DNA from: a virus
Reading direction: 5' to 3' (one strand)
UHGV virus genome: UHGV-0333516
DNA length: 10,733 nt
A program made the translations under genes and the position numbers. Within the stretch, counting starts at the first letter, position 1. Every line of letters starts with the position of its first letter. Below are positions 1-10,733 of this stretch, piece by piece. Under the pieces are notes generated by a model. The model was not told the origin of the DNA and ran no database searches. It worked only from the letters and a program-made list of their open reading frames with translations.

Positions 1-160
1 ATATTATTGATACAGAGTGTATTAACGGAAAAATCGTTGTTGCCCATATCAATGGTGGGCAAGAAGCGACACTCAAAAAATTTGTTGAGGACTGGCCGAA
101 CAGGTATCTCGTCCCACTAAATCCTAACTATAAAACTATTGAATTCTGTATCAATAATAT
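1..160. repeat. 16-bp perfect inverted repeat (1-16 vs reverse complement of 145-160) flanking a 128-bp segment
   Basis: atattattgatacaga at 1-16 equals the reverse complement of 145-160; both copies encode IIDTE in the same codon phase on opposite strands. Confidence 0.9.
3..146 (+). pseudogene. orphan C-terminal S24-peptidase segment of the CI-like repressor, in opposite orientation to the gene body
   Basis: Plus frame from position 3, with no start codon, translates to IIDTECINGKIVVAHINGGQEATLKKFVEDWPNRYLVPLNPNYKTIEF. This aligns with the LexA/CI region holding the catalytic Lys (VTVKRL...LLPENSEFKPIVV). It continues exactly where the minus-strand repressor ORF breaks off. Confidence 0.6.
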
Positions 161-614
161 CTGGCTCTACGATAACGATAGAACCTTCTGGTATCGATGG
201 TGAGCCGAGGGGATTGGTCATTGAATCACCACGGACCCGTAGTGCAAATGCCATTTCTGATACAAGGGCGGTAGTATAAACCCACTCTTCAGCATCTTCT
301 TTCCTGACACCAGGCTCCGTCATTGTCCATGAACCCGCCTGAACCCACGAGATTAGGGGGACTTTTTTAACTGCGAATATTTCAGGTTTTAGATTTATCT
401 TTGGTTCAGGCGAGCCTTTTCCGCTAACAAGCCACAGAGGATCGCATTTAAGTGCGTTGGCTAGGGCTTGAAGGTTGGCTCCATTTGGTTGGTAGTCGTC
501 CTTTTCCCATCCAGTAACCGTGACACGGTTCACACCAGTCAAATCAGCCAGTGCTTGTTGTGTCAGGTTCAGTTCTTTTCGCCTTTGGCGAATACGATCA
601 CTCATGTTCATCAT
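117..614 (-). CDS. CI-like prophage repressor (HTH_XRE + N-terminal part of S24 LexA-like peptidase), apparently truncated
   Basis: N-terminal HTH (LTQQALADLTGVNRVTVTGWE) and Ser-motif GDSM are present. The ORF ends ...IVIVEPDIIDTEFNSFIVRI*, before the Lys-containing half of the S24 domain. The start abuts an operator-like site (leaderless-type arrangement). Confidence 0.8.
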   Translation of the reverse strand: MMNMSDRIRQRRKELNLTQQALADLTGVNRVTVTGWEKDDYQPNGANLQALANALKCDPLWLVSGKGSPEPKINLKPEIFAVKKVPLISWVQAGSWTMTEPGVRKEDAEEWVYTTALVSEMAFALRVRGDSMTNPLGSPSIPEGSIVIVEPDIIDTEFNSFIVRI

Positions 615-709
615 GTAGGCAATCCTACCACATGCCCATGTAGGATTCTTGACATTGGCATGTTGGATATCCTACATTTCTGCTTAACGTAATTTAACGG
701 GAGACAGAA
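615..709. promoter_or_regulatory. divergent cI/cro promoter-operator region with three operator-like sites
   Basis: Sites gtaggcaatcctac (615-628), gtaggattcttgac (640-653) and gttggatatcctac (662-675) lie about 22-25 bp apart. A consensus -35 TTGACA (649-654) with candidate -10 TACATT (673-678) faces cro. A candidate leftward -10 (taggat on the minus strand, 622-627) sits 7 nt before the cI ATG. Confidence 0.5.
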
Positions 710-907
710 ATGCGGAAATCCGACGTGATTAATTATTTCGGCGGAGTTTGTAAAATCGCCGAAGCCCTAGGTATTAAGCATCCGTCTGTTTCAGAGTGGC
801 CTGAGATTATTCCTGAAGGCCGAGCGTACCAGTTAGAAAAAATTACTAACGGGAAACTGAAAGTTGACGTGTCTTTATATCAAAAGACTAACAGTGCTGC
901 GGCATAA
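710..907 (+). CDS. Cro-like small HTH regulator (YdaS-like)
   Basis: 65-aa ORF divergent from the repressor, RBS gggag 8 nt upstream, HTH-like motif FGGVCKIAEALGIKHPSVSEW. Confidence 0.6.
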   Translation: MRKSDVINYFGGVCKIAEALGIKHPSVSEWPEIIPEGRAYQLEKITNGKLKVDVSLYQKTNSAAA

Positions 908-934
908 AAACACCACAGAAATGAGGAATTAACC

Positions 935-1519
935 GTGGGTAAAGAACCTGAATGGAAAGTTGATAAACAACCAGCATGGCTGGTGGCAGCAATACGAAGA
1001 ACGATTGCTGATTTACCTCATGGCTATGAGGAAGCAGCAGAAATTCTTGGTTTGTATAAATCTGATGATATCACCCCAGCAAAAGATCAATTGCATAACA
1101 GACTGCGTAGCGGTGGGGATCAAATTTTTCCACTTGAGTGGGCCATGGTTTTACAGGATGCCAGTGGTACCAGGCATGTAACAGATGCAATAGCCCGTCG
1201 TAGTAATGGGGTGTTTGTGCCGCTGGTGGTCATTGATGACATTGACAATGGTGACATTAATCAGCGGCTGATGGAGTCAATAGAATGGATTGGCAAGCAT
1301 TCCCAGTACTTACGCAAGGCAACTGCTGATGGAGTTATTGACCAGGCTGAGCGTGAGCAAATCGAAGAGAACAGCTACCAAGTAATGGCGAAGTGGCAGG
1401 AGCATTTAACACTGTTATTTCGTGTTTTTTGTGCGCCGGAAAAGAGTAACGCCCGCGAGTGTGCAGCTCCGGGCGTCGTGGCGTCGATTGCTTCTGGTTG
1501 TGGAGAAACTAACGCATGA
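935..1519 (+). CDS. CII-like phage regulatory protein (CP76/YdaT-like family, assignment by eye)
   Basis: 194-aa ORF directly after cro, GTG start with RBS gagga; its position matches cII-type genes of lambdoid prophages; its stop overlaps the next ATG (ATGA). Confidence 0.45.
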   Translation: MGKEPEWKVDKQPAWLVAAIRRTIADLPHGYEEAAEILGLYKSDDITPAKDQLHNRLRSGGDQIFPLEWAMVLQDASGTRHVTDAIARRSNGVFVPLVVIDDIDNGDINQRLMESIEWIGKHSQYLRKATADGVIDQAEREQIEENSYQVMAKWQEHLTLLFRVFCAPEKSNARECAAPGVVASIASGCGETNA

Positions 1520-1844
1520 ATAGTTTAACGGCAAATAACCGTTTGTCGCAACAGCTGGTGGTCAGCGTCGCTGAACACCTGTTGTTACGGCATGAATGCA
1601 GATTACCAAATCACCTGGCTGTAAGTAACCACAGAGAACTTTACCTGACTGTGGGGGGCGAGTTGTGCAGGAACTTAACCGCTGGTTTCGTGACGGAAGA
1701 GGGCTTTATGTCCATGTTATTCGTTGGGAGCCAGAAACACAGCGCGTTATCTATCTTCGCAAAGACTACCCGCATGAGTGCTTTAGTCCTTTGTGGAAAT
1801 TCAGGCGTGATTTTGTTGAGTGTGAAGGACCACCAGCATATTGA
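1516..1844 (+). CDS. hypothetical protein, reading frame apparently disrupted at a G6 tract (1653-1658)
   Basis: The ATG at 1516 is coupled to the upstream stop. After the G6 run the protein-like reading (RVVQELNRWFRDGRGLYVHVIRWEPETQRVIYLRKDYPHECFSPLWKFRRDFVECEGPPAY*) continues in the adjacent frame to a stop at 1842-1844. One additional G would fuse the two parts. Confidence 0.3.
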
Positions 1845-1932
1845 TTCTGCAATTCCGGGACGTTACACTGCTCAGGCACCTTATAAAGCGGGTGCCGGGA
1901 TTGGCGTCCTGAAATTGTCAACGGCGATGTAT

Positions 1933-1952
1933 GACGCGCCAGCGTCTTTTTT
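1933..1952 (+). terminator. candidate intrinsic terminator
   Basis: gacgc-gcca-gcgtc stem-loop followed by tttttt; lies inside the 386-aa track ORF. Confidence 0.4.
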
Positions 1953-2118
1953 ATCGTCCGCATTTGCTCACATCCAGATTATGGTGGGCTGGGCGGGGGC
2001 ACCGAAAGGTGCGCCGGTCTCCGTTGACGCCGGTTACGCCAACCCCGTCCAGTTCACCACCAGTGAAATTGGCGTTTCCGGTGGTGGAAGTTTTTCACTG
2101 TCAACGGAGGCTGCCATC

Positions 2119-2676
2119 ATGGCTACGATCCCAGCCCTCACTCAACCTGAAATCACCATTGACAACGGCCAGGCCGTTACCACTTCTTTGGCTGTTGCCA
2201 ACTTCTTCTCCAAGCGTCACGACGATGTGCTGAAAAAGATCCGCACTCTGGATTGTTCCCCAGAGTTTTGTGCCCGCAATTTTGCGGAGACATCGATTTC
2301 GGTAAATCAACCGAACGGTGGTACACGCAAGCTCCCTTGCTATCAAATCACACGAGACGGTTTTGCGTTTCTTGCTATGGGTTTCACGGGTAAACGTGCT
2401 GCCCGGTTCAAAGAGGCATACATAAATGCCTTTAACCAGATGGAGAAACAGCTTTCAAAGCCCGCTGTACCGAGCGACGTTGCACATAACGCCAGCGTTC
2501 TCTGTTCCTACATTTCATCAATTCATCAGGTCTGGCTGCAGCAGCTTTATCCTATGTTGGCAAAAGCCGAATCTCCGCTGGCTGTTAGCTTATATGACTA
2601 TATTAATGATGCTTCGGCGCTGGCCAGTCTCATAAATTTGTCGCTGAACCCTTCAGAGGTAAGGGGGCGCAAATGA
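2119..2676 (+). CDS. Rha-family phage regulatory protein
   Basis: Rha-type motif ITIDNGQAVTTSLAVANFFSKRHDDVLKKIR...GGTRKLPCYQITRDGFAFLAMGFTGKRAARFKEAYINAFNQME. The internal ATG at 2119 has RBS ggagg 8 nt upstream. The track ORF 1516..2676 is the same frame; its 5' extension is doubtful. Confidence 0.65.
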   Translation: MATIPALTQPEITIDNGQAVTTSLAVANFFSKRHDDVLKKIRTLDCSPEFCARNFAETSISVNQPNGGTRKLPCYQITRDGFAFLAMGFTGKRAARFKEAYINAFNQMEKQLSKPAVPSDVAHNASVLCSYISSIHQVWLQQLYPMLAKAESPLAVSLYDYINDASALASLINLSLNPSEVRGRK

Positions 2677-2897
2677 TCCGGAATATTTTCAAACGGTTTA
2701 CCAATCATACTTTCCGTTGTCCTCGTCCGGGTCAGTGGTACACCACGCCTGCTGGGCATGTTCTACGTGTTAGCCTGGTTGACCGTGAATGTCAGAAGGT
2801 GGTTTGTGAACCGCTGGGCCGTAATTACCGCGTCAGTATGCCGCTTATAGCCTTTTGCTCCGGAAAAATGTTTAAGCGTCTGGGAGGTGTGGCGTGA
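2673..2897 (+). CDS. hypothetical small Cys-containing protein
   Basis: 74-aa ORF, ATGA overlap with Rha stop, RBS agggggc upstream. Confidence 0.45.
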   Translation: MIRNIFKRFTNHTFRCPRPGQWYTTPAGHVLRVSLVDRECQKVVCEPLGRNYRVSMPLIAFCSGKMFKRLGGVA

Positions 2898-3193
2898 ACT
2901 GTTTTCAGTTTGTGTGCGGATGTGCTTTCGATAACCCGATTCAGCGCCTAATTATGTTGCGTGTTTTGATGTCGGGTTCTTCAGACGGTGAAGGCGAGAG
3001 AGTTATTGATCATCAGGTGCTTGCTGATTTCTGCTGTTGTTCTAAGCAAGCGATATTCAGGGAAACCCTGGCACTGGAAAGAGCTGGTTATCTTCATATC
3101 CGAAAAATTGCAACGCTTACTATTGATGCAAAAGCCAGACTACAACCTGCGCGTGGCTACACAATTCTCATGCTGCGGAAGGAGGTTGTATGA
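2894..3193 (+). CDS. hypothetical protein, possible DNA-binding
   Basis: 99-aa ORF, GTG start overlapping the upstream stop (GTGA), RBS gggagg upstream; alternative start at the internal Met. Confidence 0.45.
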   Translation: MNCFQFVCGCAFDNPIQRLIMLRVLMSGSSDGEGERVIDHQVLADFCCCSKQAIFRETLALERAGYLHIRKIATLTIDAKARLQPARGYTILMLRKEVV

Positions 3194-4185
3194 GCCGTTA
3201 CGCCCCCACACCGGAAGTTATGGCTATTGGTCAAATTAATATTTCCGGCAATGTTACACCTGCGACCTGGTGGAAATATATTCGACTACCCAGTGGGCGT
3301 CCGGATGCGACGGCTATCGCTCTGCTTTCAGAGATCGTTTACTGGTACCGCCCGACAGAGGTCAGGGATGAGCACACCGGAGCGTTGCTGGGATATCGCA
3401 AGCGTTTTCAGGGCGACAAACTGCAAAGAAGCTACCAGGCGTTTGCTGAGCAGTTTGGTTTCGGGAAAAGGGAAACCGCAGATGCGCTGAAGCGTCTGCG
3501 CGATGCAGGGTTTATTACTCTGGATTTACGCACGGTGGAAATGCTCGATGGGGTGAAATGCAGCAATATTTTGTTTGTCGGGATCAACCCACAGGCAATT
3601 GCGGCCATCACCACACCTTCTTCTGTTTCGCCAGAAAGTAACAGCAATAATGCAATCAGCGATACAGCTATTACGTTAAAACGGAACACCCCCCGACGTC
3701 ATAACGGAACAGGGGATACGCCGAATGTTGATACAAATACAGAGATTACTACAGAGATTACTACAGAGATTACAACGGAGACTAAAAACACTATTGGCGC
3801 ATCCGCTGACGCGTCTGCACCAGCGCGTTCTGCCAGACAGGAATATTCACCGGAATTTGAACAGGCCTGGCAGGAATATCCCAAACGTGCTGGTGGTAAT
3901 TCAAAATCCGCCGCTTTTAAAGCCTGGAAAGCCCGAATCAGGGAAGGTGTGACACCCGAAACCATGCTCGACGGTGTGAAACGCTATGCCGCCTGGGTGC
4001 GTGTCTCTGGAAATACCGGTACCCAGTTCGTGAAGCAGGCGTCGACGTTCTTTGGTCCGGATCGTCATTTCGAAGAATCCTGGGAAGTTCCTGCGGTATC
4101 TGCAGCCAGACGCGAGGACCCGTACTTCAAAGCCAGTTACGACAACGTGGACTACAGCCAGATCCCGGAAGGATTCAGGGGGTGA
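3190..4185 (+). CDS. phage replication protein with DnaT-like C-terminus
   Basis: 331-aa ORF with strong RBS ggaaggagg; C-terminal ...DYSQIPEGFRG resembles the C-terminus of primosomal protein DnaT (...SQIPPGFRG); central TEITTEITTEITTE linker. Confidence 0.65.
   Translation: MSRYAPTPEVMAIGQINISGNVTPATWWKYIRLPSGRPDATAIALLSEIVYWYRPTEVRDEHTGALLGYRKRFQGDKLQRSYQAFAEQFGFGKRETADALKRLRDAGFITLDLRTVEMLDGVKCSNILFVGINPQAIAAITTPSSVSPESNSNNAISDTAITLKRNTPRRHNGTGDTPNVDTNTEITTEITTEITTETKNTIGASADASAPARSARQEYSPEFEQAWQEYPKRAGGNSKSAAFKAWKARIREGVTPETMLDGVKRYAAWVRVSGNTGTQFVKQASTFFGPDRHFEESWEVPAVSAARREDPYFKASYDNVDYSQIPEGFRG
3739..3786. repeat. tandem 12-bp direct repeats (about 3.5-4 copies) inside the replication gene
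   Basis: acagagattact x2, acagagattaca, then degenerate acggagactaaa. Confidence 0.8.
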
Positions 4186-4187
4186 TC

Positions 4188-4280
4188 ATGAGTCTTTTGA
4201 ATGAAGTTCAGAAATTCATTGAAGCCCATCCGGGGTGTACTTCCGGAGACATTGCGGATGCTTTTTACGTGGGGGCTTAA
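4188..4280 (+). CDS. 30-aa small ORF (winged-helix N-terminal-like fragment)
   Basis: ATG overlaps the upstream stop; stop overlaps the Dam ATG (TAATG); MSLLNEVQKFIEAHPGCTSGDIADAF resembles the N-terminus of PapI/FaeA-type small regulators. Confidence 0.25.
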   Translation: MSLLNEVQKFIEAHPGCTSGDIADAFYVGA

Positions 4281-4933
4281 TGAGTAATAAATATTGCCAG
4301 GCGCTGGTAGAACTGCGGAACAAACCAGCCCATGAACTGAAGGAAGTGGGCGATCAGTGGCGCACGCCGGACAACATTTTCTGGGGAATTAACACCTTGT
4401 TTGGTCCGTTTGTTCTGGATCTGTTCACTGACGGTGATAACGCCAAATGTGCCGCGTATTACACGGCGGAAGACAACGCGCTGGCGCATGACTGGTCAGA
4501 ACGTCTTGCGGAGCTTAAAGGTGCTGCCTTTGGTAATCCCCCATACAGCCGCGCCAGTCAGCATGAGGGGCAATACATCACCGGCATGCGTTACATCATG
4601 AAACATGCCAGTGCCATGCGTGATAAGGGCGGGCGCTATGTTTTCCTGATCAAAGCGGCCACCAGCGAAGTGTGGTGGCCGGAAGATGCAGATCATATTG
4701 CTTTTATTCGCGGGCGTATTGGTTTTGAACTGCCAGCCTGGTTTATCCCGAAAGACGAAAAGCAGGTGCCAACAGGTGCTTTCTTCGCTGGTGCTATTGC
4801 TGTTTTCGACAAGACCTGGAAGGGAGCGGCAATCAGCTACATCGGGCGCGATGAACTTGAGGCATGTGGTGAGGCGTTTCTGGCGCAGGTTCGCCAGCAG
4901 GCGGAAAAACTGGTCAGGGAGATGGCGGCATGA
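4280..4933 (+). CDS. phage Dam-type DNA N6-adenine methyltransferase
   Basis: GNPPY motif (AAFGNPPYS); likely start ATG 4280 with G-rich RBS; the track ORF starts at 4235 in the same frame. Confidence 0.7.
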   Translation: MSNKYCQALVELRNKPAHELKEVGDQWRTPDNIFWGINTLFGPFVLDLFTDGDNAKCAAYYTAEDNALAHDWSERLAELKGAAFGNPPYSRASQHEGQYITGMRYIMKHASAMRDKGGRYVFLIKAATSEVWWPEDADHIAFIRGRIGFELPAWFIPKDEKQVPTGAFFAGAIAVFDKTWKGAAISYIGRDELEACGEAFLAQVRQQAEKLVREMAA

Positions 4934-5256
4934 CGACATTAACTCAATGCCAGCAGCAGGTGCTGGATATGCTGATTTCTTATCAGAAAGAACGTGGCTT
5001 CCCGCCAACCAATCAGGAGGTGGCAACCATGCTGGGATACCGTTCGGTGAATGCAGCGGTGGAGCATCTTCGCGCACTGGAGAAAAAAGGTGTCATCACG
5101 ATAAAGCGTGGCGTGGCCCGGGGTATCACTCTTCATACCGCGGTGAAGGACGACGACAGCGAGGCGGTCGGGATTATCCGCGCCCTGCTTGCCGGTGAGG
5201 CAAACGCCAGGCTGCGTGCAGCCCACTGGTTACATGAGAGGGGCCTGAAAGTATGA
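4930..5256 (+). CDS. LexA N-terminal DNA-binding-domain protein (no peptidase domain)
   Basis: QQQVLDMLISYQKERGFPPTNQEVATMLGYRSVNAAVEHLRALEKKGVITIKRGVARGITL aligns with E. coli LexA residues about 6-70 (winged HTH); there is no S24 domain. Confidence 0.75.
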   Translation: MTTLTQCQQQVLDMLISYQKERGFPPTNQEVATMLGYRSVNAAVEHLRALEKKGVITIKRGVARGITLHTAVKDDDSEAVGIIRALLAGEANARLRAAHWLHERGLKV

Positions 5257-5648
5257 AGCTAATACTGCCTTTTCCGCCCAGCGTGAACACGTACTGGCGA
5301 CACCCCAACAAAGGGGCGTTTGCTGGTAAGAGCCTGATAAGCGCGGCGGGGCGAAAATTCCAGAGCGCGGCGTGTGCAGCAATAGTTGAGCAGTTACGTC
5401 GTCTGCCGAAACCAACGTCGGCACCTGCTTCAGTGGAGATCGTGTTGTTTCCTCCGGATAACCGGATCCGCGATCTGGACAACTATAACAAGGCGCTGTT
5501 TGACGCCCTGACCCACGCGGGTGTGTGGGAAGACGACAGACAGGTGAAAAGAATGCTGGTGGAGTGGGGACCGGTTATCCCGGAGGGGAAGGTCGAGATC
5601 ACTATCAGTAAGTACGAAAAAGCGAGTTGCAAATTAGCAACTCGGTAA
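5253..5648 (+). CDS. rusA: RusA Holliday-junction resolvase
   Basis: 131-aa ORF with RusA-type motifs (LPFPPSVNTYWRH..., RDLDNYNKALFDALTHAGVWEDD); position in the nin-like region. Confidence 0.85.
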   Translation: MKLILPFPPSVNTYWRHPNKGAFAGKSLISAAGRKFQSAACAAIVEQLRRLPKPTSAPASVEIVLFPPDNRIRDLDNYNKALFDALTHAGVWEDDRQVKRMLVEWGPVIPEGKVEITISKYEKASCKLATR

Positions 5649-5693
5649 CGGAATTGAGCAACACCCTAAATTTGGGTATTACCTCGTTAAAGA

Positions 5694-5713
5694 TACTGTA
5701 TTTATGAACAGTG
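5694..5713. promoter_or_regulatory. candidate LexA (SOS) box
   Basis: tactgtatttatgaacagtg: perfect CTGT-N8-ACAG core, 16/20 match to TACTGTATATATATACAGTA; overlaps a candidate -35 (tgaaca) with -10 tattaa at 5728-5733. Confidence 0.5.
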
Positions 5714-5810
5714 TATCCTTGATAACTATTAAAAATCGCAGTAAGTTCATCCTGCATCAACGAAAAGGGAGTGCAGTCCCGCTCGTGGATAAAAATTTGT
5801 GGAGAAACCA

Positions 5811-6626
5811 ATGAATCAGTTGCTTGTAATTGATGGCGTTTCTGTGCGCCAGTACTTCGAATCTAACTACTGTCTTAACGACCTTCAGAAAGCTGCTCTT
5901 CTTGCCGCTGGTGAGAATCGCTCCTCCCGTTCGCTGGAAGTTCACGAGTTTATGCGTCGTCCTGAAACGAAGGCTCTTGTGGAATTATTGGAAGAAGAAA
6001 CTACGGGAGATTCCCGTAGTATTCCTGTCATCACCATTCAGGGGCGCAATGGTGGGACGTATGTCTGTAAAGAGCTGGTCTATGCATATGCAATGTGGAT
6101 CAGCCCGGCATTCAGCTTAAAAGTGATACGTACTTTTGATGCGCTTCATAATTCATCACCAGAAGAAACCACATCCGACAAAATTAAATCCGGGGTCATT
6201 CTGCTTGAATCAGCAGCAAAGACTCTAAATCTGTCAAACTCCTCGAAACTTGGTGCATACCAGAAATTATCAAAGGTAGCTGGTCTTCCTGAACTTATGC
6301 CGATCTATGCCATTGATGCACCTGCTGATGCGCCAGATGGTTCAAGCCGCCCTACGCTGTCGCTGAGTGCACTGCTGAAGCAGTATGGTATCCGCCTGAC
6401 GGCTAATCAGGCATATCACCAGATGGCGAAGCTGGGGATCGTTGAACAACGCGAACGATACAGCCGTACCGCGATTAACAACATCAAAAAATTCTGGTCG
6501 CTGACAGCGAAAGGTTGCATGTTCGGCAAGAACATCACCAGTCCCGCAAATCCGCGCGAGACGCAGCCGCATTTCTTCGAATCCCGATTCCCTGAGCTGT
6601 TAAAGCTGCTCGATACCGTTCATTGA
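5811..6626 (+). CDS. KilA-N domain protein, antirepressor-like
   Basis: N-terminal KilA-N-like region (...PVITIQGRNGGTYVCKELVYAYAMWISPAFSLKVIRTFDAL); ATG 5811 with RBS gtggag; the track start 5799 is a GTG in the same frame. Confidence 0.65.
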   Translation: MNQLLVIDGVSVRQYFESNYCLNDLQKAALLAAGENRSSRSLEVHEFMRRPETKALVELLEEETTGDSRSIPVITIQGRNGGTYVCKELVYAYAMWISPAFSLKVIRTFDALHNSSPEETTSDKIKSGVILLESAAKTLNLSNSSKLGAYQKLSKVAGLPELMPIYAIDAPADAPDGSSRPTLSLSALLKQYGIRLTANQAYHQMAKLGIVEQRERYSRTAINNIKKFWSLTAKGCMFGKNITSPANPRETQPHFFESRFPELLKLLDTVH

Positions 6627-6627
6627 G

Positions 6628-7623
6628 GTGACCGTGAGAGCACTACTGACCCCTGAAATTGCCCCGCGTATGGGGATCGTATTGTTCAGACCCGGTTCAG
6701 AGCTGATGCCCCTGTTTATGCAGGGGCGTGTCCTGCTGGAGCCTGAGCCGGAACGTTATTCATCTTTTGCCAGTGGTGCCGTTCCGGCAGCATCACAACC
6801 GCTGGCGGATGATCCTGCCGTTCGGGTCGTGTTCCGCAATGAGGCAGTGATCCGTCGTGCTGGTGGCGTGGAATGTCTTGAAAGCTGGTTACTTCGTGAA
6901 AAAGGTTGCCAGTGGCCTCATTCCGACTGGCACAGCGAGAACATGACCACAATGCGACACGCGCCGGGCGCAATCCGTCTGTGCTGGCACTGCGATAACC
7001 AGCTGCGCGATCAGTTCACGGAACGGCTGGAATCAATGGCAACGGATAACTGTGCCCGCTGGGTGTTGTCTGTTGTGCGTCGGGATCTCGGTTTTGATGA
7101 CAGTCACGTTGTGACAATGCCGGAACTGTGCTGGTGGCTGGTTCGTAATGATCTGGCGGATGCCTTACCGGAAAGTGCAGCCCGTAAGGCACTGAGATTA
7201 CCGAAGCCTGTTGTGCCGTCTGTCACCCGGGAGAGTGACCTTGTGCCTTCGGTTCCGGCCACCAGCATCATCCAGAATAAAGCGAAAAAGGTGCTGGCGC
7301 TGAAAGTGGATCCGGAGTCGCCGGAGTCTTTTATGTTACGCCCAAAACGTCGCCGCTGGGTTAACGAAAAGTACACGCGCTGGGTTAAGACGCAGCCGTG
7401 TGCATGTTGTGGAAAGCCTGCTGATGATCCCCACCACCTGATAGGCCACGGTCAGGGGGGAATGGGTACAAAAGCGCATGACCTCTTCGTGCTGCCTTTG
7501 TGCAGAAAGCATCACGACGAGCTGCATGCGGATACCGTGGCATTTGAAGAGAAGTATGGCTCCCAGCTGGAGCTGATATTTCGTTTTATCGATCGTGCGC
7601 TGGCAATAGGCGTGCTGGCCTGA
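6628..7623 (+). CDS. DUF968-like prophage protein with C-terminal HNH-like Cys/His motif
   Basis: C-terminal CACCGKPADDPHHLIGHGQGGMGTKAHDLFVLPLCRKHHDELH; sits immediately upstream of Q as in other E. coli prophages. Confidence 0.6.
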   Translation: MTVRALLTPEIAPRMGIVLFRPGSELMPLFMQGRVLLEPEPERYSSFASGAVPAASQPLADDPAVRVVFRNEAVIRRAGGVECLESWLLREKGCQWPHSDWHSENMTTMRHAPGAIRLCWHCDNQLRDQFTERLESMATDNCARWVLSVVRRDLGFDDSHVVTMPELCWWLVRNDLADALPESAARKALRLPKPVVPSVTRESDLVPSVPATSIIQNKAKKVLALKVDPESPESFMLRPKRRRWVNEKYTRWVKTQPCACCGKPADDPHHLIGHGQGGMGTKAHDLFVLPLCRKHHDELHADTVAFEEKYGSQLELIFRFIDRALAIGVLA

Positions 7624-7640
7624 TTTTGTGGAGAAAGTTG

Positions 7641-8012
7641 ATGCGTGATATTCAAATGGTTCTTGAACGTTGGGGGGCATGGGTGGCAAATAATCACGAG
7701 GATGTGGAATGGTCATCTGTTGCTGCAGGTTTTAAGGGATTAATTCCTTCGAAAGTAAAATCCCGCCCGCAATGTAGCGATGACGATGGCCTGATCATTA
7801 GCTCTGCGATGACAGTTCTTAAGAAAAAGGAACCGTATCAATACGAATTACTGGAAATGTATTATGTGTATGGGGTTACATTACGGGTGTTGGGGGTAAA
7901 ACTGGGGATATCACTTAATCAGGTTGTTATCAGACTGCAGAAAGCTGAAGGGTTTATTGACGGTTGTCTGGCAATGTTGGGGGTATCTTTAGAAATTGAT
8001 TGTTACATATAG
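7641..8012 (+). CDS. late-gene antitermination protein Q (small Q family)
   Basis: MRDIQMVLERWGAWVANNHEDVEWSS...SKVKSRPQCSDDD...RLQKAEGFIDGCLAMLGV matches the Q-family pattern of E. coli cryptic prophages; ATG 7641 with RBS gtggag. Confidence 0.8.
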   Translation: MRDIQMVLERWGAWVANNHEDVEWSSVAAGFKGLIPSKVKSRPQCSDDDGLIISSAMTVLKKKEPYQYELLEMYYVYGVTLRVLGVKLGISLNQVVIRLQKAEGFIDGCLAMLGVSLEIDCYI

Positions 8013-8087
8013 TAATAAATTCAATCAAAGTAAATAATCATATTTTATTATAACCTCCTGATGATACCTGTTCATTGGGAGGTTATT

Positions 8088-8705
8088 ATGGATAAAAATG
8101 TAGAGCATGTATTAGTTGATGCAATTGAAAATAAGCAATCTTTAACAGTCGTTTACTTAGGAGGGAGCCAGCCCGGAACATTAAGGAATATTTCTCCGAT
8201 TAGTATAAATGGGGATAAATTGCGGGCAAGATGCCATAGTTCTGGAGCAGTAAAGGTTTTCAATCTTGGGAAAATACAGTTACCCAGTGACTCCTGCGCG
8301 GTATCTATGCACTATGGAGATTTAGAAGTTAAAGCTTATGAGACGATGCAGAGCGTAAATGACAACTTTCATGCCCTTTATCCTGAAGGACGATGGGGTG
8401 TTGATTTTAATGAGCATCGCTTTGCTTTATTTGATTTTTTTAAAAACGGGAAACGAAAAAAAACGGCATTTATGGCAATTGAGTTCAGGGAAAGAGATGA
8501 AGAGAAAATAATAACAGGTGTAACAATTGATATTGGTATATCTGGAACAGTGATTTCTGAGAAGTCCCGAATCCCAAAAAGACGACCATGGGTAGTGGTT
8601 GGTCCCGAACACGGAGAATACAGTACTTATTCAACTTTGGACAAGGCTGCTACAGCGTTTTTTGAGAGGCTTTCGTTGATAGCATCCGGCCTGGAAGATA
8701 ATTGA
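8088..8705 (+). CDS. hypothetical AT-rich cargo protein with WYL-like N-terminal motif
   Basis: Strong RBS gggagg 5 nt before ATG 8088; about 205 aa; visibly AT-rich compared with flanking genes; N-terminal LTVVYLGGSQPGTLRNISPISINGDKLRARCHSSGAVKVFNLGKI resembles the WYL/SH3-like beta-barrel pattern (by eye). Confidence 0.6.
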   Translation: MDKNVEHVLVDAIENKQSLTVVYLGGSQPGTLRNISPISINGDKLRARCHSSGAVKVFNLGKIQLPSDSCAVSMHYGDLEVKAYETMQSVNDNFHALYPEGRWGVDFNEHRFALFDFFKNGKRKKTAFMAIEFRERDEEKIITGVTIDIGISGTVISEKSRIPKRRPWVVVGPEHGEYSTYSTLDKAATAFFERLSLIASGLEDN

Positions 8706-8835
8706 TTTTATGTTTGGTATTCAGAGTTCGCCGTGCTTAAGAAAGTCAAGATTCTAAAAATACTGAATGAGCTACTTGTGTTATAACAAAAATGCTATTA
8801 GTGTGTTAAGAGTGGTTACTTCGCCACACAACTTA

Positions 8836-8859
8836 AACCCGCCACTGAGCGGGTTTTTT
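8836..8859 (+). terminator. intrinsic terminator (tR'-like)
   Basis: aacccgc-cactga-gcgggtt stem-loop followed by tttttt. Confidence 0.6.
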
Positions 8860-8981
8860 GTACCTGTAAACTTGGTGCAGTACAGTAAACACGCTGGTGG
8901 TCGTGAATACTGACTTTTTATCTTGCTGGCTTTTTAGACAAGAGTTATTGGTATGTCATGTTAACCAGAAGGGAAAAAGAC

Positions 8982-9179
8982 ATGCTAAAACAGCAAGATA
9001 TGACCGAAACCGCCAGAGTGGTGTTTAATGAATTGAGCGTCACCGAACCGGCGACAGTCGGGGAGATTGCGCAGAATACTTACCTTTCACGCGAACGCTG
9101 CCAGTTAATACTGACCCAGCTGGTTATGGCGGGTCTGGCAGACTATCAGTTCGGTTGTTACAGACGCCTTCCGCAGTGA
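8982..9179 (+). CDS. small winged-helix-like protein (PapI/FaeA-like by eye)
   Basis: 65 aa from ATG 8982 (RBS agaaggga); the track start 8958 is in the same frame; TVGEIAQNTYLSRERCQLILTQLVMAGLA resembles small wHTH regulators. Confidence 0.45.
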   Translation: MLKQQDMTETARVVFNELSVTEPATVGEIAQNTYLSRERCQLILTQLVMAGLADYQFGCYRRLPQ

Positions 9180-9193
9180 AGGCTTTTTTATTT
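9166..9193 (+). terminator. intrinsic terminator overlapping the stop of the small wHTH gene
   Basis: gccttc-cgcagt-gaaggc stem-loop followed by ttttttattt. Confidence 0.6.
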
Positions 9194-9329
9194 GTGGTAA
9201 ATGGGCGGTTGGTGGGTGTTAGGGGCACCCACCAGCCATCTGCTCATGCGTTGGGTTCACAAGCAAACCTCAGGCCCACTGCTTTGCGCAAAAGCAGAAT
9301 GAGCCTATCAGAGACAGGCTTAATGATCC

Positions 9330-10379
9330 ATGCTTAATACTGTAAAAATATCCAGTTGTGAGTTAATCAACGCCGACTGCCTGGAATTTATCCGGTCGTT
9401 ACCCGAAAATTCTGTTGACCTGATAGTCACGGACCCGCCGTACTTTAAAGTGAAGCCTGAGGGCTGGGATAACCAGTGGAAGGGCGACGATGATTACCTG
9501 AAGTGGCTGGACCAGTGTCTGGCGCAGTTCTGGCGGGTGCTGAAACCTGCCGGAAGTCTTTACCTGTTCTGTGGTCATCGCCTGGCATCTGATATCGAAA
9601 TCATGATGCGTGAACGCTTCAGTGTGCTGAACCATATTATCTGGGCGAAGCCGTCCGGACGCTGGAACGGATGCAACAAGGAAAGCCTGCGGGCGTATTT
9701 CCCCGCCACAGAGCGCATTCTGTTCGCGGAACATTATCAGGGGCCGTATCGTCCGAAAGATGCCGGGTATGAGGCGAAGAGCAGGGCACTGAAACAGCAT
9801 GTGATGGCCCCGCTGATTGCTTACTTTCGTGATGCGCGCGCTGCCCTGGGGATAACGGCAAAACAGATTGCAGATGCCACAGGAAAGAAAAACATGGTGC
9901 CGCACTGGTTCAGTGCCAGTCAGTGGCAGCTACCGAACGAAAGCGATTATCTGAAATTACAGTCGCTGTTTGCCCGGGTGGCAGAAGAGAAACATCAGCG
10001 GGGAGAACTGGAAAAGTCCCATTACCAACTGGTCAGCACATACAGTGAGCTGAACCGGCAGTATACGGAACTGCTGAGTGAATATAAAAATTTGCGGCGG
10101 TATTTCGGTGTGACGGTGCAGGTGCCGTACACCGATGTGTGGACGTATAAACCGGTGCAGTACTATCCAGGGAAACATCCGTGCGAAAAACCGGCAGAAA
10201 TGCTGCAGCAGATAATCAGCGCAAGTAGTCGTCCTGGTGATCTGGTTGCGGATTTTTTCATGGGGTCGGGTTCAACGGTAAAAGCGGCGATGGCACTGGG
10301 GCGTCGTGCGATTGGTGTTGAGCTGGAGACCGGACGTTTTGAGCAGACAGTCAGGGAAGTTCAGGATTTAATCGTTTGA
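9330..10379 (+). CDS. DNA methyltransferase (beta-class N6A/N4C type; motif IV DPPY precedes motif I)
   Basis: LIVTDPPY near the N-terminus and DFFMGSGST near the C-terminus; 349 aa. Confidence 0.85.
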   Translation: MLNTVKISSCELINADCLEFIRSLPENSVDLIVTDPPYFKVKPEGWDNQWKGDDDYLKWLDQCLAQFWRVLKPAGSLYLFCGHRLASDIEIMMRERFSVLNHIIWAKPSGRWNGCNKESLRAYFPATERILFAEHYQGPYRPKDAGYEAKSRALKQHVMAPLIAYFRDARAALGITAKQIADATGKKNMVPHWFSASQWQLPNESDYLKLQSLFARVAEEKHQRGELEKSHYQLVSTYSELNRQYTELLSEYKNLRRYFGVTVQVPYTDVWTYKPVQYYPGKHPCEKPAEMLQQIISASSRPGDLVADFFMGSGSTVKAAMALGRRAIGVELETGRFEQTVREVQDLIV

Positions 10380-10390
10380 AACGGATGAGA

Positions 10391-10419
10391 TTGCAGTATT
10401 AATTCCGTAACGTTATTAT
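10391..10419 (+). promoter_or_regulatory. candidate stable-RNA-type promoter for the tRNA cluster
   Basis: -35 ttgcag (10391-10396), 17-bp spacer, -10 tattat (10414-10419), GC-rich discriminator ctgcgcgcgg immediately before the tRNA 5' end. Confidence 0.45.
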
Positions 10420-10428
10420 TCTGCGCGC

Positions 10429-10504
10429 GGCCCTTTAGCTCAGTGGTGAGAGCGAGCGACTCATAATCGCCAGGTCGCTGGTTCAAATCCAGCAAGGGCC
10501 ACCA
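10429..10504 (+). tRNA. tRNA-Ile(CAU) (ileX/ileZ-like; tRNA-Met not excluded)
   Basis: 76-nt cloverleaf: acceptor ggccctt/aagggcc, D-stem gctc/gagc, anticodon loop ctcataa (CAT), T-loop ttcaaat, 3' ACCA; close to E. coli ileX. Confidence 0.8.
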
Positions 10505-10513
10505 TATCACATA

Positions 10514-10590
10514 CCGCCATTAGCTCATCGGGATAGAGCGTCAGCCTTCGAAGCTGGTTGCGCGGGGTTCGAGTCCTCGATGGCGGTCCA
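10514..10590 (+). tRNA. tRNA-Arg(UCG)
   Basis: 77-nt cloverleaf: acceptor ccgccat/atggcgg, D-stem gctc/gagc, anticodon loop cttcgaa (TCG), T-arm cgggg-ttcgagt-cctcg, 3' TCCA. Confidence 0.75.
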
Positions 10591-10615
10591 TTATCTGTAC
10601 CCTGCGTTGTTAGCT

Positions 10616-10733
10616 CCCGCGCAACCAGCTTCGAAGGCTGACGCTCTATCCCGATGAGCTAATGGCGGTATGTGATATGGTGGCCCTTGCTGGATTTGAA
10701 CCAGCGACCTGGCGATTATGAGTCGCTCGCTCT
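10616..10733 (-). repeat. perfect 118-bp inverted duplicate of 10449-10566 (partial tRNA-Arg and tRNA-Ile copies), running to the window end
   Basis: 10616-10733 is the exact reverse complement of 10449-10566; the 49-bp unique spacer 10567-10615 holds the tRNA-Arg 3' end. Confidence 0.9.

What the first reader, a model, noticed from the sequence alone, without database searches (positions are those of the whole stretch)
1..10733. Both window ends are inverted-repeat junctions, and two G-tracts sit at frame breaks
The left end (16-bp inverted repeat, broken reperessor) and the right end (118-bp inverted repeat, tRNA foldback) are both inverted-repeat junctions, and two G homopolymers each appear one base short of restoring a fused frame. 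One explanation for all of these is a contig built from data with homopolymer errors and foldback chimeras (for example amplified viral metagenome or long-read artefacts). The biological alternative is replicative inverted concatemers or a genuinely rearranged, decaying prophage. This affects how far the repressor truncation and frameshifts should be trusted.
Basis: inference. Interest (0 to 1): 0.4.

Follow-up and report, generated by a model that had tools for sequence, protein, structure and literature searches.

The report
Foldback artefacts on prophage contig ends
Both ends of this 10.7-kb E. coli lambdoid-prophage fragment turn back on themselves in a way that no independent genome shows, which is most likely a sequencing or assembly artefact, while the two G-runs are normal gene boundaries, so nothing here is biologically new.

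Summary
The inverted repeats are real in the sequence: 1-16/145-160 and 10449-10566/10616-10733, both 100% complementary. They are not prophage features. An independent E. coli chromosome (GCA_052767385.1) matches window 145-10616 in one ungapped 10,472-nt block (14 mismatches, no gaps). The outer 144 nt and 118 nt are exact reverse complements of the adjacent native DNA. The window is therefore a native 10,599-nt segment whose two ends fold back, with loops of 128 and 49 nt.

No junction-spanning match was found in 5,426 complete E. coli genomes or 50,697 phage records. Exact junction 43-45-mers are absent from IMG/VR, JGI metagenomes and GTDB representatives. The "broken repressor" and the truncated third tRNA are products of these junctions and should not be trusted.

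The G-tracts are wild type. Tract 1 is G6 in 134 of 136 independent assemblies and lies in the ribosome-binding region of a stand-alone DUF4222 gene. Tract 2 is G5 in 49 of 49 and is the native 3' end of a PerC-family gene that carries a widespread in-frame 396-nt deletion.

Verdict: foldback-chimera contig ends supported, homopolymer errors refuted, decaying prophage or replicative concatemer not supported. Interest is low.

The parts
1..144 (.). Left terminal inverted block. It is the exact reverse complement of native DNA lying immediately left of, and overlapping by 16 nt, the point where the collinear core begins. On the + strand it encodes residues 153-199 of the repressor.
   Evidence: 100% identical on the opposite strand to L001 2873-3016, L004 1373-1516, L085 and L175 6828-6971; translation check.
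1..16 (.). Outer arm of the left inverted repeat, cut off by the window end. It pairs with 145-160.
   Evidence: I8, 16 nt, 100% complementary
144..145 (.). Left non-native junction (strand switch), with 0 nt of overlap or microhomology.
   Evidence: the true continuation is GCGGTGAG..., the actual one is TCTGTATC.... No junction-spanning match in 140 genomes that carry this segment, and the 45-mer is absent from three collections.
145..10615 (+). Native, collinear core: the early/regulatory region of a lambdoid (Stx-phage-like) E. coli prophage, from the repressor gene to the tRNA cluster.
   Evidence: A single ungapped 10,472-nt alignment to L175 (GCA_052767385.1), 14 mismatches and 0 gaps; 99.91% identical over 8,996 nt to L085; gene content.
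145..614 (-). 5' part (aa 1-157) of the cI-like HTH + peptidase S24 repressor gene. The gene is cut by the left junction and is intact (217 aa) in every comparator examined.
1653..1658 (+). G6 tract, the wild-type length. It lies 7 nt upstream of the GTG start of the DUF4222 gene, in its likely Shine-Dalgarno region.
   Evidence: G6 in 134 of 136 independent assemblies; 120-nt context 100% identical in complete genomes; no gap against L175.
1665..1844 (+). Stand-alone DUF4222 gene (59 aa). The Pfam model covers the whole protein, so no N-terminal fusion is missing.
   Evidence: profile 4-51 of 53; the same 59-aa gene is annotated in RefSeq genomes.
4188..4280 (+). 30-aa remnant of a PerC-family (yfdN-like) gene: an in-frame 396-nt internal deletion that keeps the native N-terminus, the native C-terminus (VGA*) and the TAATG stop/start overlap with dam.
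   Evidence: Alignment to the full-length gene L002 5283-5777; PHROG hits to the N-terminus only; widespread allele.
4271..4275 (+). G5 tract, the wild-type length, inside the last codons (GTG GGG GCT TAA) of the PerC-family gene.
   Evidence: G5 in 49 of 49 assemblies; the same GTGGGGGCTTAATG is present in the full-length gene.
4280..4933 (+). Phage Dam N6-adenine methyltransferase gene with its own ATG. It is not a frameshifted fusion.
   Evidence: PF05869, 5e-45; the 217-aa gene is annotated identically in the references.
10429..10590 (+). tRNA-Ile2 (anticodon CAT; ARAGORN calls it Met, RefSeq calls the homologue Ile) and tRNA-Arg (TCG), both native.
10567..10615 (+). Loop of the right foldback (native sequence). 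Its last 12 nt (10604-10615) are the start of the third tRNA (tRNA-Arg), which is cut off by the junction.
   Evidence: reference tRNA-Arg no. 3 starts at window 10604
10615..10616 (.). Right non-native junction (strand switch), with 1 nt of possible overlap.
   Evidence: the true continuation is CAGCCGGACAG..., the actual one is CCCGCGCAACC.... No junction-spanning match in 3,058 genomes that carry this segment, and the 43-mer is absent from three collections.
10616..10733 (.). Right terminal inverted block: the exact reverse complement of 10449-10566, cut off by the window end.
   Evidence: I1, 118 nt, 100%; maps to L175 17260-17377 on the opposite strand.

Best explanation
The window is a short contig, or a single-molecule consensus, of an ordinary lambdoid E. 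coli prophage early region. Its true extent is one native 10,599-nt stretch. At each end the sequence switches strand and runs back over DNA it has just covered: 128 nt back at the left end and 49 nt back at the right end. This produces terminal inverted repeats whose lengths (16 and 118 nt) are set only by where the contig stops. Such hairpin ends arise when foldback (strand-switch) chimeric molecules made during amplification or library preparation, or hairpin edges in an assembly graph, extend a contig at a point where the true path gives out.

Shown here: the geometry of the two junctions, their absence from all independent assemblies searched, and the intactness of the native sequence in close relatives. 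Inferred: that the cause is technical, and at which step it arose. The truncated repressor, the 12-nt stump of the third tRNA and the extra minus-strand partial tRNA are consequences of the junctions and not biology.

The two G-tracts are unrelated to this and are correct. One lies in the ribosome-binding region of a small stand-alone gene. The other is the natural end of a PerC-family gene carrying a common in-frame deletion.
For: (1): L175, an independent 5.2-Mb chromosome, aligns to window 145-10616 in one block of 10,472 nt with 0 gaps and 14 mismatches. Window 1-144 and 10616-10733 map at 100% identity to the opposite strand, 16 nt overlapping and 49 nt behind the breakpoints respectively.
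(2): the same result at the left end for L001, L004 and L085. L085 is 99.91% identical to the core and has an intact 217-aa repressor.
(3): 140 and 3,058 complete genomes carry the end segments, and none has a place covering 80% or more of the junction-spanning query.
(4): collinear matches in E. coli genomes and phage records start no earlier than 145 and end no later than 10616.
(5): the junction 43-45-mers are absent from IMG/VR, GTDB representative genomes and JGI metagenomes.
(6): the chimeric 165-aa ORF is not on record.
(7) Both arms are 100% identical and end exactly at the window ends.
(8) Both junctions meet the operational definition of a foldback artefact, opposite strand within 200 bp (PMC12870357). 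They also match the 'double-strand hairpin' misassembly in which an edge is joined to its own reverse complement (PMC6736328).
(9) Control: none of about 90 true ends of 45 whole IMG/VR contigs of related prophages carries such a terminal foldback, so this is not a property of the locus.
(10) G-tracts.
Against: The junctions are blunt, with 0 and 1 nt of overlap. Pairing-primed template switching such as MDA gives 2 nt or more in 93.5% of proximal inverted chimeras (PMC1855051), so the commonest documented mechanism fits poorly and the exact technical step is unknown.

For an assembler to follow a chimeric path at both ends, the native continuations must have been missing or weakly covered. 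That would also be expected if the molecule population really ended there.

No reads, coverage or provenance are available, so the technical origin is an inference. The two arms have unequal lengths (16 and 118 nt), which does not point to a single k-mer-size effect.
Confidence: 0.86

Rival explanations
1. A real extrachromosomal inverted-dimer or 'dog-bone' replicon derived from the prophage immunity-replication region, of the lambda-dv or ODIRA type. Two diverging forks close on themselves, giving a linear duplex with looped ends that replicates to a head-to-head/tail-to-tail circular dimer. An assembler would collapse that dimer to one unit with a foldback at each end.
For: The topology is what a collapsed inverted dimer would give: one unit with both ends turning back through short unique loops. 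The unit carries cro, a cII-like gene, replication-initiator genes and a 12-nt x3.7 repeat that could be iterons. The left junction removes the repressor's C-terminal half, which could derepress early transcription (inference). Foldback at both ends suggests the native continuations were not available to the assembler (inference). ODIRA precedent: PMC4689423. That lambda-dv occurs as inverted dimers is my own recollection and was not verified here (one search found no source).
Against: [quoted passage not shown] The native sequence has none here, with overlap of 0 and 1 nt. No second occurrence was found in any collection. From my own knowledge, long inverted repeats with spacers this short are poorly tolerated in sbcCD+ E. 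coli. Technical foldbacks are far commoner than such plasmids.
Confidence: 0.05
2. A genuine, heritable rearrangement of an integrated, decaying prophage: two independent small inverted duplications that inactivate the repressor and a tRNA gene.
For: The sequence as given contains the junctions. Prophages do decay, and one gene in the core (PerC family) carries a real deletion.
Against: Both events lie within 150 nt of the window ends, and their arms stop at the ends. The rest of the core is gap-free against a complete genome and all other genes are intact. References have no second repeat arm that would allow inversion. None of 5,426 complete genomes yielded a junction-spanning match. The arms show no divergence.
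Confidence: 0.04
3. Homopolymer-length sequencing errors at 1653-1658 and 4271-4275 have split genes that are really fused.
For: Adding one G at either tract would join the upstream and downstream reading frames. One of 136 assemblies (L090) has G7 at tract 1.
Against: Tract 1 is G6 in 134/136 and tract 2 is G5 in 49/49 independent assemblies. The 120-nt contexts are 100% identical in complete genomes. There are zero gaps over 10,472 nt against L175. DUF4222 is a complete stand-alone 59-aa protein. The PerC remnant ends at the native stop codon of the full-length gene, and dam has its own conserved ATG.
Confidence: 0.01
4. Hairpin telomeres of a linear phage-plasmid (N15 type), or a site-specific invertible segment (Gin/Hin type).
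For: Terminal inverted repeats at both ends.
Against: The loops are 49 and 128 nt of ordinary coding or tRNA sequence, not a palindromic telomere site. No protelomerase or invertase was found among the window's ORFs. References contain only one arm of each repeat. The same DNA is chromosomally integrated and collinear in complete genomes.
Confidence: 0.01

Closest known systems
Foldback (inverted, strand-switch) chimeric artefacts of amplification or library preparation, and 'double-strand hairpin' edges in de Bruijn-graph assemblies (PMC12870357, PMC1855051, PMC6736328)
   Same: [quoted passage not shown] The events are local and intramolecular. The contig is joined to its own reverse complement. 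They occur at contig ends and are absent from independent assemblies.
   Different: There is no microhomology at either junction, unlike most proximal MDA chimeras. The loops are 49 and 128 nt rather than the near-zero offset of unsplit template/complement long reads. Provenance and read support are unknown.
ODIRA / inverted-dimer extrachromosomal amplicons (PMC4689423)
   Same: One unit containing a replication module, bounded on both sides by hairpin-type inversion junctions with short unique loops.
   Different: [quoted passage not shown] There is no evidence for copy-number increase. The model was described in yeast, not in E. coli prophages.
Lambdoid / Stx-converting prophage early region of E. 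coli (cI-cro-cII-like, Rha antirepressor with isrK/C4 sRNAs, replication genes, Dam, RusA, KilA-N, DUF968, Q, methylase, ileZ-argN-argO-type tRNAs)
   Same: The whole core 145-10615 is collinear with and 99.87% identical to a chromosomal prophage. It is 90-97% identical in pieces to Stx2 phages.
   Different: Nothing beyond ordinary mosaicism. The exact module combination is rare among complete genomes: no RefSeq complete genome covers 80% or more in one place, but L175 does.

Membership tests
Foldback chimeric artefact at contig ends | The breakpoint joins to the opposite strand close to the breakpoint (within 200 bp; PMC12870357) | tested here: met
   Left: 128 nt. Right: 49 nt..
Foldback chimeric artefact at contig ends | The junction is not reproduced in independent assemblies of the same or near-identical DNA | tested here: met
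   L175 (99.87%) and L085 (99.91%) have native flanks. No junction-spanning match in 140 or 3,058 genomes. Junction 43-45-mers absent from three collections.
Foldback chimeric artefact at contig ends | Located at the sequence termini, with arms identical and truncated by the end | tested here: met
   The arms begin at 1 and end at 10733 and are 100% complementary. None of about 90 control contig ends shows this.
Foldback chimeric artefact at contig ends | Low or aberrant read support at the junction (few reads, same-strand pairs) | not testable with these tools
   No reads or coverage are available.
MDA-type inverted chimera (Lasken & Stockwell 2007) | Complementarity of 2 nt or more where the displaced 3' end primed (93.5% of inverted chimeras less than 10 kb apart) | tested here: not met
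   0 nt (left) and 1 nt (right). This lowers the case for MDA specifically, not for a technical origin in general.
Homopolymer indel error causing a frameshift | The tract length deviates from that in independent assemblies | tested here: not met
   G6 in 134/136, G5 in 49/49; 0 gaps against L175.
Homopolymer indel error causing a frameshift | Correcting the tract restores a longer protein that exists in relatives | tested here: not met
   DUF4222 is stand-alone at 59 aa. The PerC remnant ends at the native stop, and full-length PerC has the same G5 in frame.
ODIRA / inverted-dimer replicon | [quoted passage not shown] | tested here: not met
   The native sequence overlaps the inverted arm by 0 and 1 nt only.
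ODIRA / inverted-dimer replicon | A replication origin inside the unit | tested here: inconclusive
   Replication-initiator genes at 2894-4185 and a 12-nt x3.7 repeat at 3738-3781 are present, but origin function was not tested.
ODIRA / inverted-dimer replicon | Raised copy number, with junction reads at full depth | not testable with these tools
   No reads are available.
Hairpin-telomere linear phage-plasmid (N15 type) | A palindromic telomere site with essentially no loop, plus a protelomerase gene | tested here: not met
   Loops of 49 and 128 nt of coding or tRNA DNA. No such gene among the ORFs of the window.
Site-specific invertible segment (Hin/Gin) | Both repeat arms present in relatives, with an adjacent invertase | tested here: not met
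   References carry only one arm. No recombinase in the window.

The most novel reading that the evidence does not exclude
The two foldback ends report a real molecule: a lambda-dv-like 'dog-bone' or inverted-dimer mini-replicon of about 10.6 kb, thrown off by a lambdoid prophage. It would carry the prophage's replication module and a truncated repressor, and would have formed by strand joining at both diverging forks without the short inverted repeats that the ODIRA model requires.
Probability: 0.04. Interest if true: 0.45.

Novelty: not a real feature. Interest (0 to 1): 0.05.

Why it matters
The value is practical. The first 144 and last 118 bases of this contig should be trimmed before annotation. 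The repressor should not be scored as truncated, so there is no basis for calling this prophage derepressed or decaying. The third tRNA should not be scored as lost, and the minus-strand partial tRNA should be ignored. The two G-tract "frameshifts" should not be corrected, because they are true gene boundaries. The general lesson is that inverted repeats sitting exactly at both ends of a short contig, with arms that map to the neighbouring DNA on the opposite strand, should be treated as artefacts until reads show otherwise. If the unlikely biological reading were true, it would be a natural example of an inverted-dimer phage-derived replicon.

Tried and rejected
(1) I looked for the source contig or any second occurrence of the junctions. 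Exact 43-45-mers across both junctions were scanned in IMG/VR, GTDB genomes and JGI metagenomes, and the chimeric repressor ORF was looked up by exact sequence. All came back empty, so provenance remains unknown.

(2) I tested whether the core ends (145, 10615) coincide with places where other draft assemblies break, which would mark repeat boundaries. The ends of 45 whole IMG/VR contigs are scattered across the region with no clustering there, so this gives no support either way.

(3) I searched for microhomology or short inverted repeats at the junctions that could explain snap-back priming. There is none: only the palindromic AGCT at unrelated positions and 0 nt at the left. Simple snap-back and MDA-type priming are therefore disfavoured.

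(4) I considered hopping between two prophage copies in opposite orientation. I rejected it because the inverted blocks are the immediate native neighbours and are joined bluntly, not through a shared repeat.

(5) I considered unsplit template/complement long reads or a missed SMRTbell adapter. I rejected both because these give near-zero loops or adapter sequence, not 49 and 128 nt of native DNA.

(6) I considered mate-pair junction chimeras and rejected them because they join in direct, not inverted, orientation.

(7) A literature search for lambda-dv inverted dimers found no usable source. That precedent rests on my memory only.

(8) I tried to infer an assembler k-mer size from the arm lengths. 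16 and 118 nt are inconsistent with one k.

Full report
What is in the window. The 10,733-nt window is the early/regulatory region of a lambdoid, Stx-phage-like E. coli prophage. Its features are listed here:
- a cI-like HTH + peptidase-S24 repressor on the minus strand (614 down to 145)
- a P22-Cro-type cro (710-907)
- a cII/YmfL-like gene (935-1519)
- a 59-aa DUF4222 gene (1665-1844)
- the sRNA genes isrK (1876-1952) and C4 (1977-2064)
- a Rha-type antirepressor (2119-2676)
- two small ORFs and a replication-initiator gene (2673-4185)
- a 30-aa PerC-family remnant (4188-4280)
- dam (4280-4933)
- a LexA-DNA-binding-domain protein, RusA, KilA-N, DUF968 and antiterminator Q (4930-8012)
- a 205-aa ORF of unknown function in an AT-rich block (8088-8705)
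- a small ORF (8958-9179)
- an N6/N4 DNA methylase (9330-10379)
- tRNA-Ile2(CAT) and tRNA-Arg(TCG) (10429-10590)

Checking the inverted repeats. Arms 1-16/145-160 are 100% complementary with 128 nt between them. Arms 10449-10566/10616-10733 are 118 nt and 100% complementary with 49 nt between them. The outer arms stop exactly at the window ends. These are the only perfect inverted repeats of 16 nt or more in the window. By my estimate, about 0.01 such repeat would be expected by chance in 10.7 kb.

What the ends are. In searches against 5,426 complete E. coli genomes and 50,697 phage records, collinear matches start no earlier than 145 and end no later than 10616, which are the inner edges of the outer arms. 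Base-level comparison shows why. Window 1-144 is the exact reverse complement of the DNA that in the references lies immediately left of position 145 and overlaps it by 16 nt (L001 2873-3016, L004 1373-1516). Window 10616-10733 is the reverse complement of 10449-10566, whereas the references continue into a third tRNA gene (tRNA-Arg, starting at window 10604).

The decisive comparator is L175, a 5.2-Mb chromosome (GCA_052767385.1). Window 145-10616 aligns to it in one ungapped block of 10,472 nt with 14 mismatches. The two terminal blocks map at 100% identity to the opposite strand, at 6828-6971 and 17260-17377. A second independent assembly, L085 (an IMG isolate genome), is 99.91% identical over 8,996 nt with no gaps. 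It has the left 128 nt in native orientation and an intact 217-aa repressor.

The window is therefore a native 10,599-nt segment whose two ends each switch strand and run back. Both ends have the same topology: arm, unique loop, inverted arm, with one native and one non-native join each. The different loop orientation at the two ends is simply the two possible ways of traversing a hairpin.

Consequences for annotation. The 165-aa "broken repressor" (117-614, minus strand) is identical to the intact protein for 157 residues and then reads eight junction-derived residues and a stop. Its S24 domain is cut at profile position 60 of 116. The missing residues 153-199 are encoded on the other strand at 3-143. 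The third tRNA is represented by its first 12 nt only. Rfam reports a spurious partial tRNA on the minus strand at 10681-10733. None of these should be interpreted biologically.

Is either junction seen anywhere else? No.
- 140 complete genomes carry the left segment at 99% identity or better and 3,058 carry the right segment. None has a place covering 80% or more of the junction-spanning query.
- Exact 43-45-mers across each junction are absent from IMG/VR, from one genome per GTDB species and from JGI metagenomes.
- The chimeric ORF is not on record among the collection's called genes.
- As a control, none of about 90 true ends of 45 whole contigs of related prophages from draft assemblies carries a terminal foldback. 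This is not a property of the locus.

Mechanism. [quoted passage not shown] They also correspond to the "double-strand hairpin" error in which an assembly-graph edge is connected to its own reverse complement and yields a palindromic contig (PMC6736328). Inverted, local, intramolecular chimeras are also the dominant (85%) product of multiple displacement amplification (PMC1855051).

However, the junctions here are blunt, with 0 nt of overlap on the left and 1 nt on the right. In contrast, 93.5% of proximal inverted MDA chimeras show complementarity of 2 nt or more. I therefore commit to a technical foldback at both contig ends (confidence about 0.86) but not to MDA in particular. The step at which it arose, whether amplification, end repair or ligation, or graph traversal, cannot be determined without reads. 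The unequal arms (16 and 118 nt) do not point to a single k-mer size.

Biological rivals. The most interesting rival is an inverted-dimer or "dog-bone" replicon of the ODIRA type (PMC4689423). Collapsed by an assembler, it would look like this window, and the unit does contain a replication module and a candidate iteron array. [quoted passage not shown] No second occurrence exists, and I give it about 0.05.

A heritable rearrangement in a decaying prophage is unlikely (about 0.04). Both events hug the window ends, the arms are undiverged, the references lack a second repeat arm, and the rest of the core is gap-free and intact. Hairpin telomeres and invertible segments fail their defining features.

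The G-tracts. Both tracts exist at the stated coordinates, and one extra G would arithmetically join the flanking frames. Neither is an error or a break in a gene.

Tract 1 (G6, 1653-1658) lies 7 nt upstream of the GTG start of a DUF4222 gene. Its 59-aa product spans the whole Pfam model and is annotated as a stand-alone gene in RefSeq genomes. Frame 1 is in fact open across the tract (ORF 1516-2676). A gapped-pattern scan of IMG/VR gives G6 in 134 of 136 assemblies, with one G7 and one GGGTGG. The 120-nt context is 100% identical in complete genomes.

Tract 2 (G5, 4271-4275) lies in the final codons GTG GGG GCT TAA of a PerC-family gene. The full-length gene (L002 5283-5777) has the same G5, the same stop codon and the same TAATG overlap with the dam start. 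The window's 30-aa ORF is an in-frame 396-nt internal deletion of that gene. The allele is common in complete genomes. The tract is G5 in 49 of 49 assemblies.

The ungapped 10,472-nt alignment to L175 independently excludes any indel in the core.

Verdict. The practical outcome is to trim 1-144 and 10616-10733, disregard the repressor truncation and tRNA anomalies, and leave the G-tracts as they are.

Noticed in passing
window 1876-1952 and 1977-2064 (inside ORF 1516-2676): Two sRNA genes, isrK (62 bits) and C4 antisense RNA (81 bits), lie upstream of the Rha antirepressor domain. Gene callers and RefSeq often annotate the whole open frame as one 381-387-aa 'Rha family' protein. Pfam PF10554 (Phage_ASH) hits the translation of exactly this RNA-coding stretch, so that protein family may rest on an RNA gene, or the region is dual-use.
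   Followed up: partly
window 3738-3781: A 12-nt tandem repeat TACAGAGATTAC x3.7 lies inside the replication-initiator gene (encoding TEIT repeats). These are candidate origin iterons, by analogy with lambda ori inside gene O. The L001 orthologue is 12 nt shorter.
   Followed up: no
window 4188-4280: A PerC-family (yfdN-like) regulator is reduced to 30 aa by an in-frame 396-nt deletion that keeps the translational coupling to dam. The allele is common in complete E. coli genomes, and PGAP flags it as an incomplete pseudogene in some.
   Followed up: yes
window 8001-9000 (ORF 8088-8705): An AT-rich block (36-40% GC against about 50% elsewhere) lies between Q and the methylase. It carries a 205-aa ORF of unknown function (phrog_8498, no Pfam hit), which looks moron-like. 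The ORF is interrupted by an insertion of about 1.2 kb in L140 and is split or shortened in L183 and L184.
   Followed up: partly
L090 (IMG/VR locus), site homologous to window 1653-1658: This is the only assembly of 136 with G7 at tract 1. That would fuse the 46-codon upstream frame to DUF4222. It is either an error in that assembly or a rare variant.
   Followed up: no
window 637-678: A 22-nt imperfect repeat (CATGTAGGATTC…) lies in the repressor-cro intergenic region. These are presumably the operator sites of this immunity type.
   Followed up: no
window 10429-10504: ARAGORN calls the first tRNA Met (anticodon CAT). RefSeq annotates the identical gene as tRNA-Ile, the lysidine-modified ileZ type typical of Stx-phage tRNA clusters.
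   Followed up: partly
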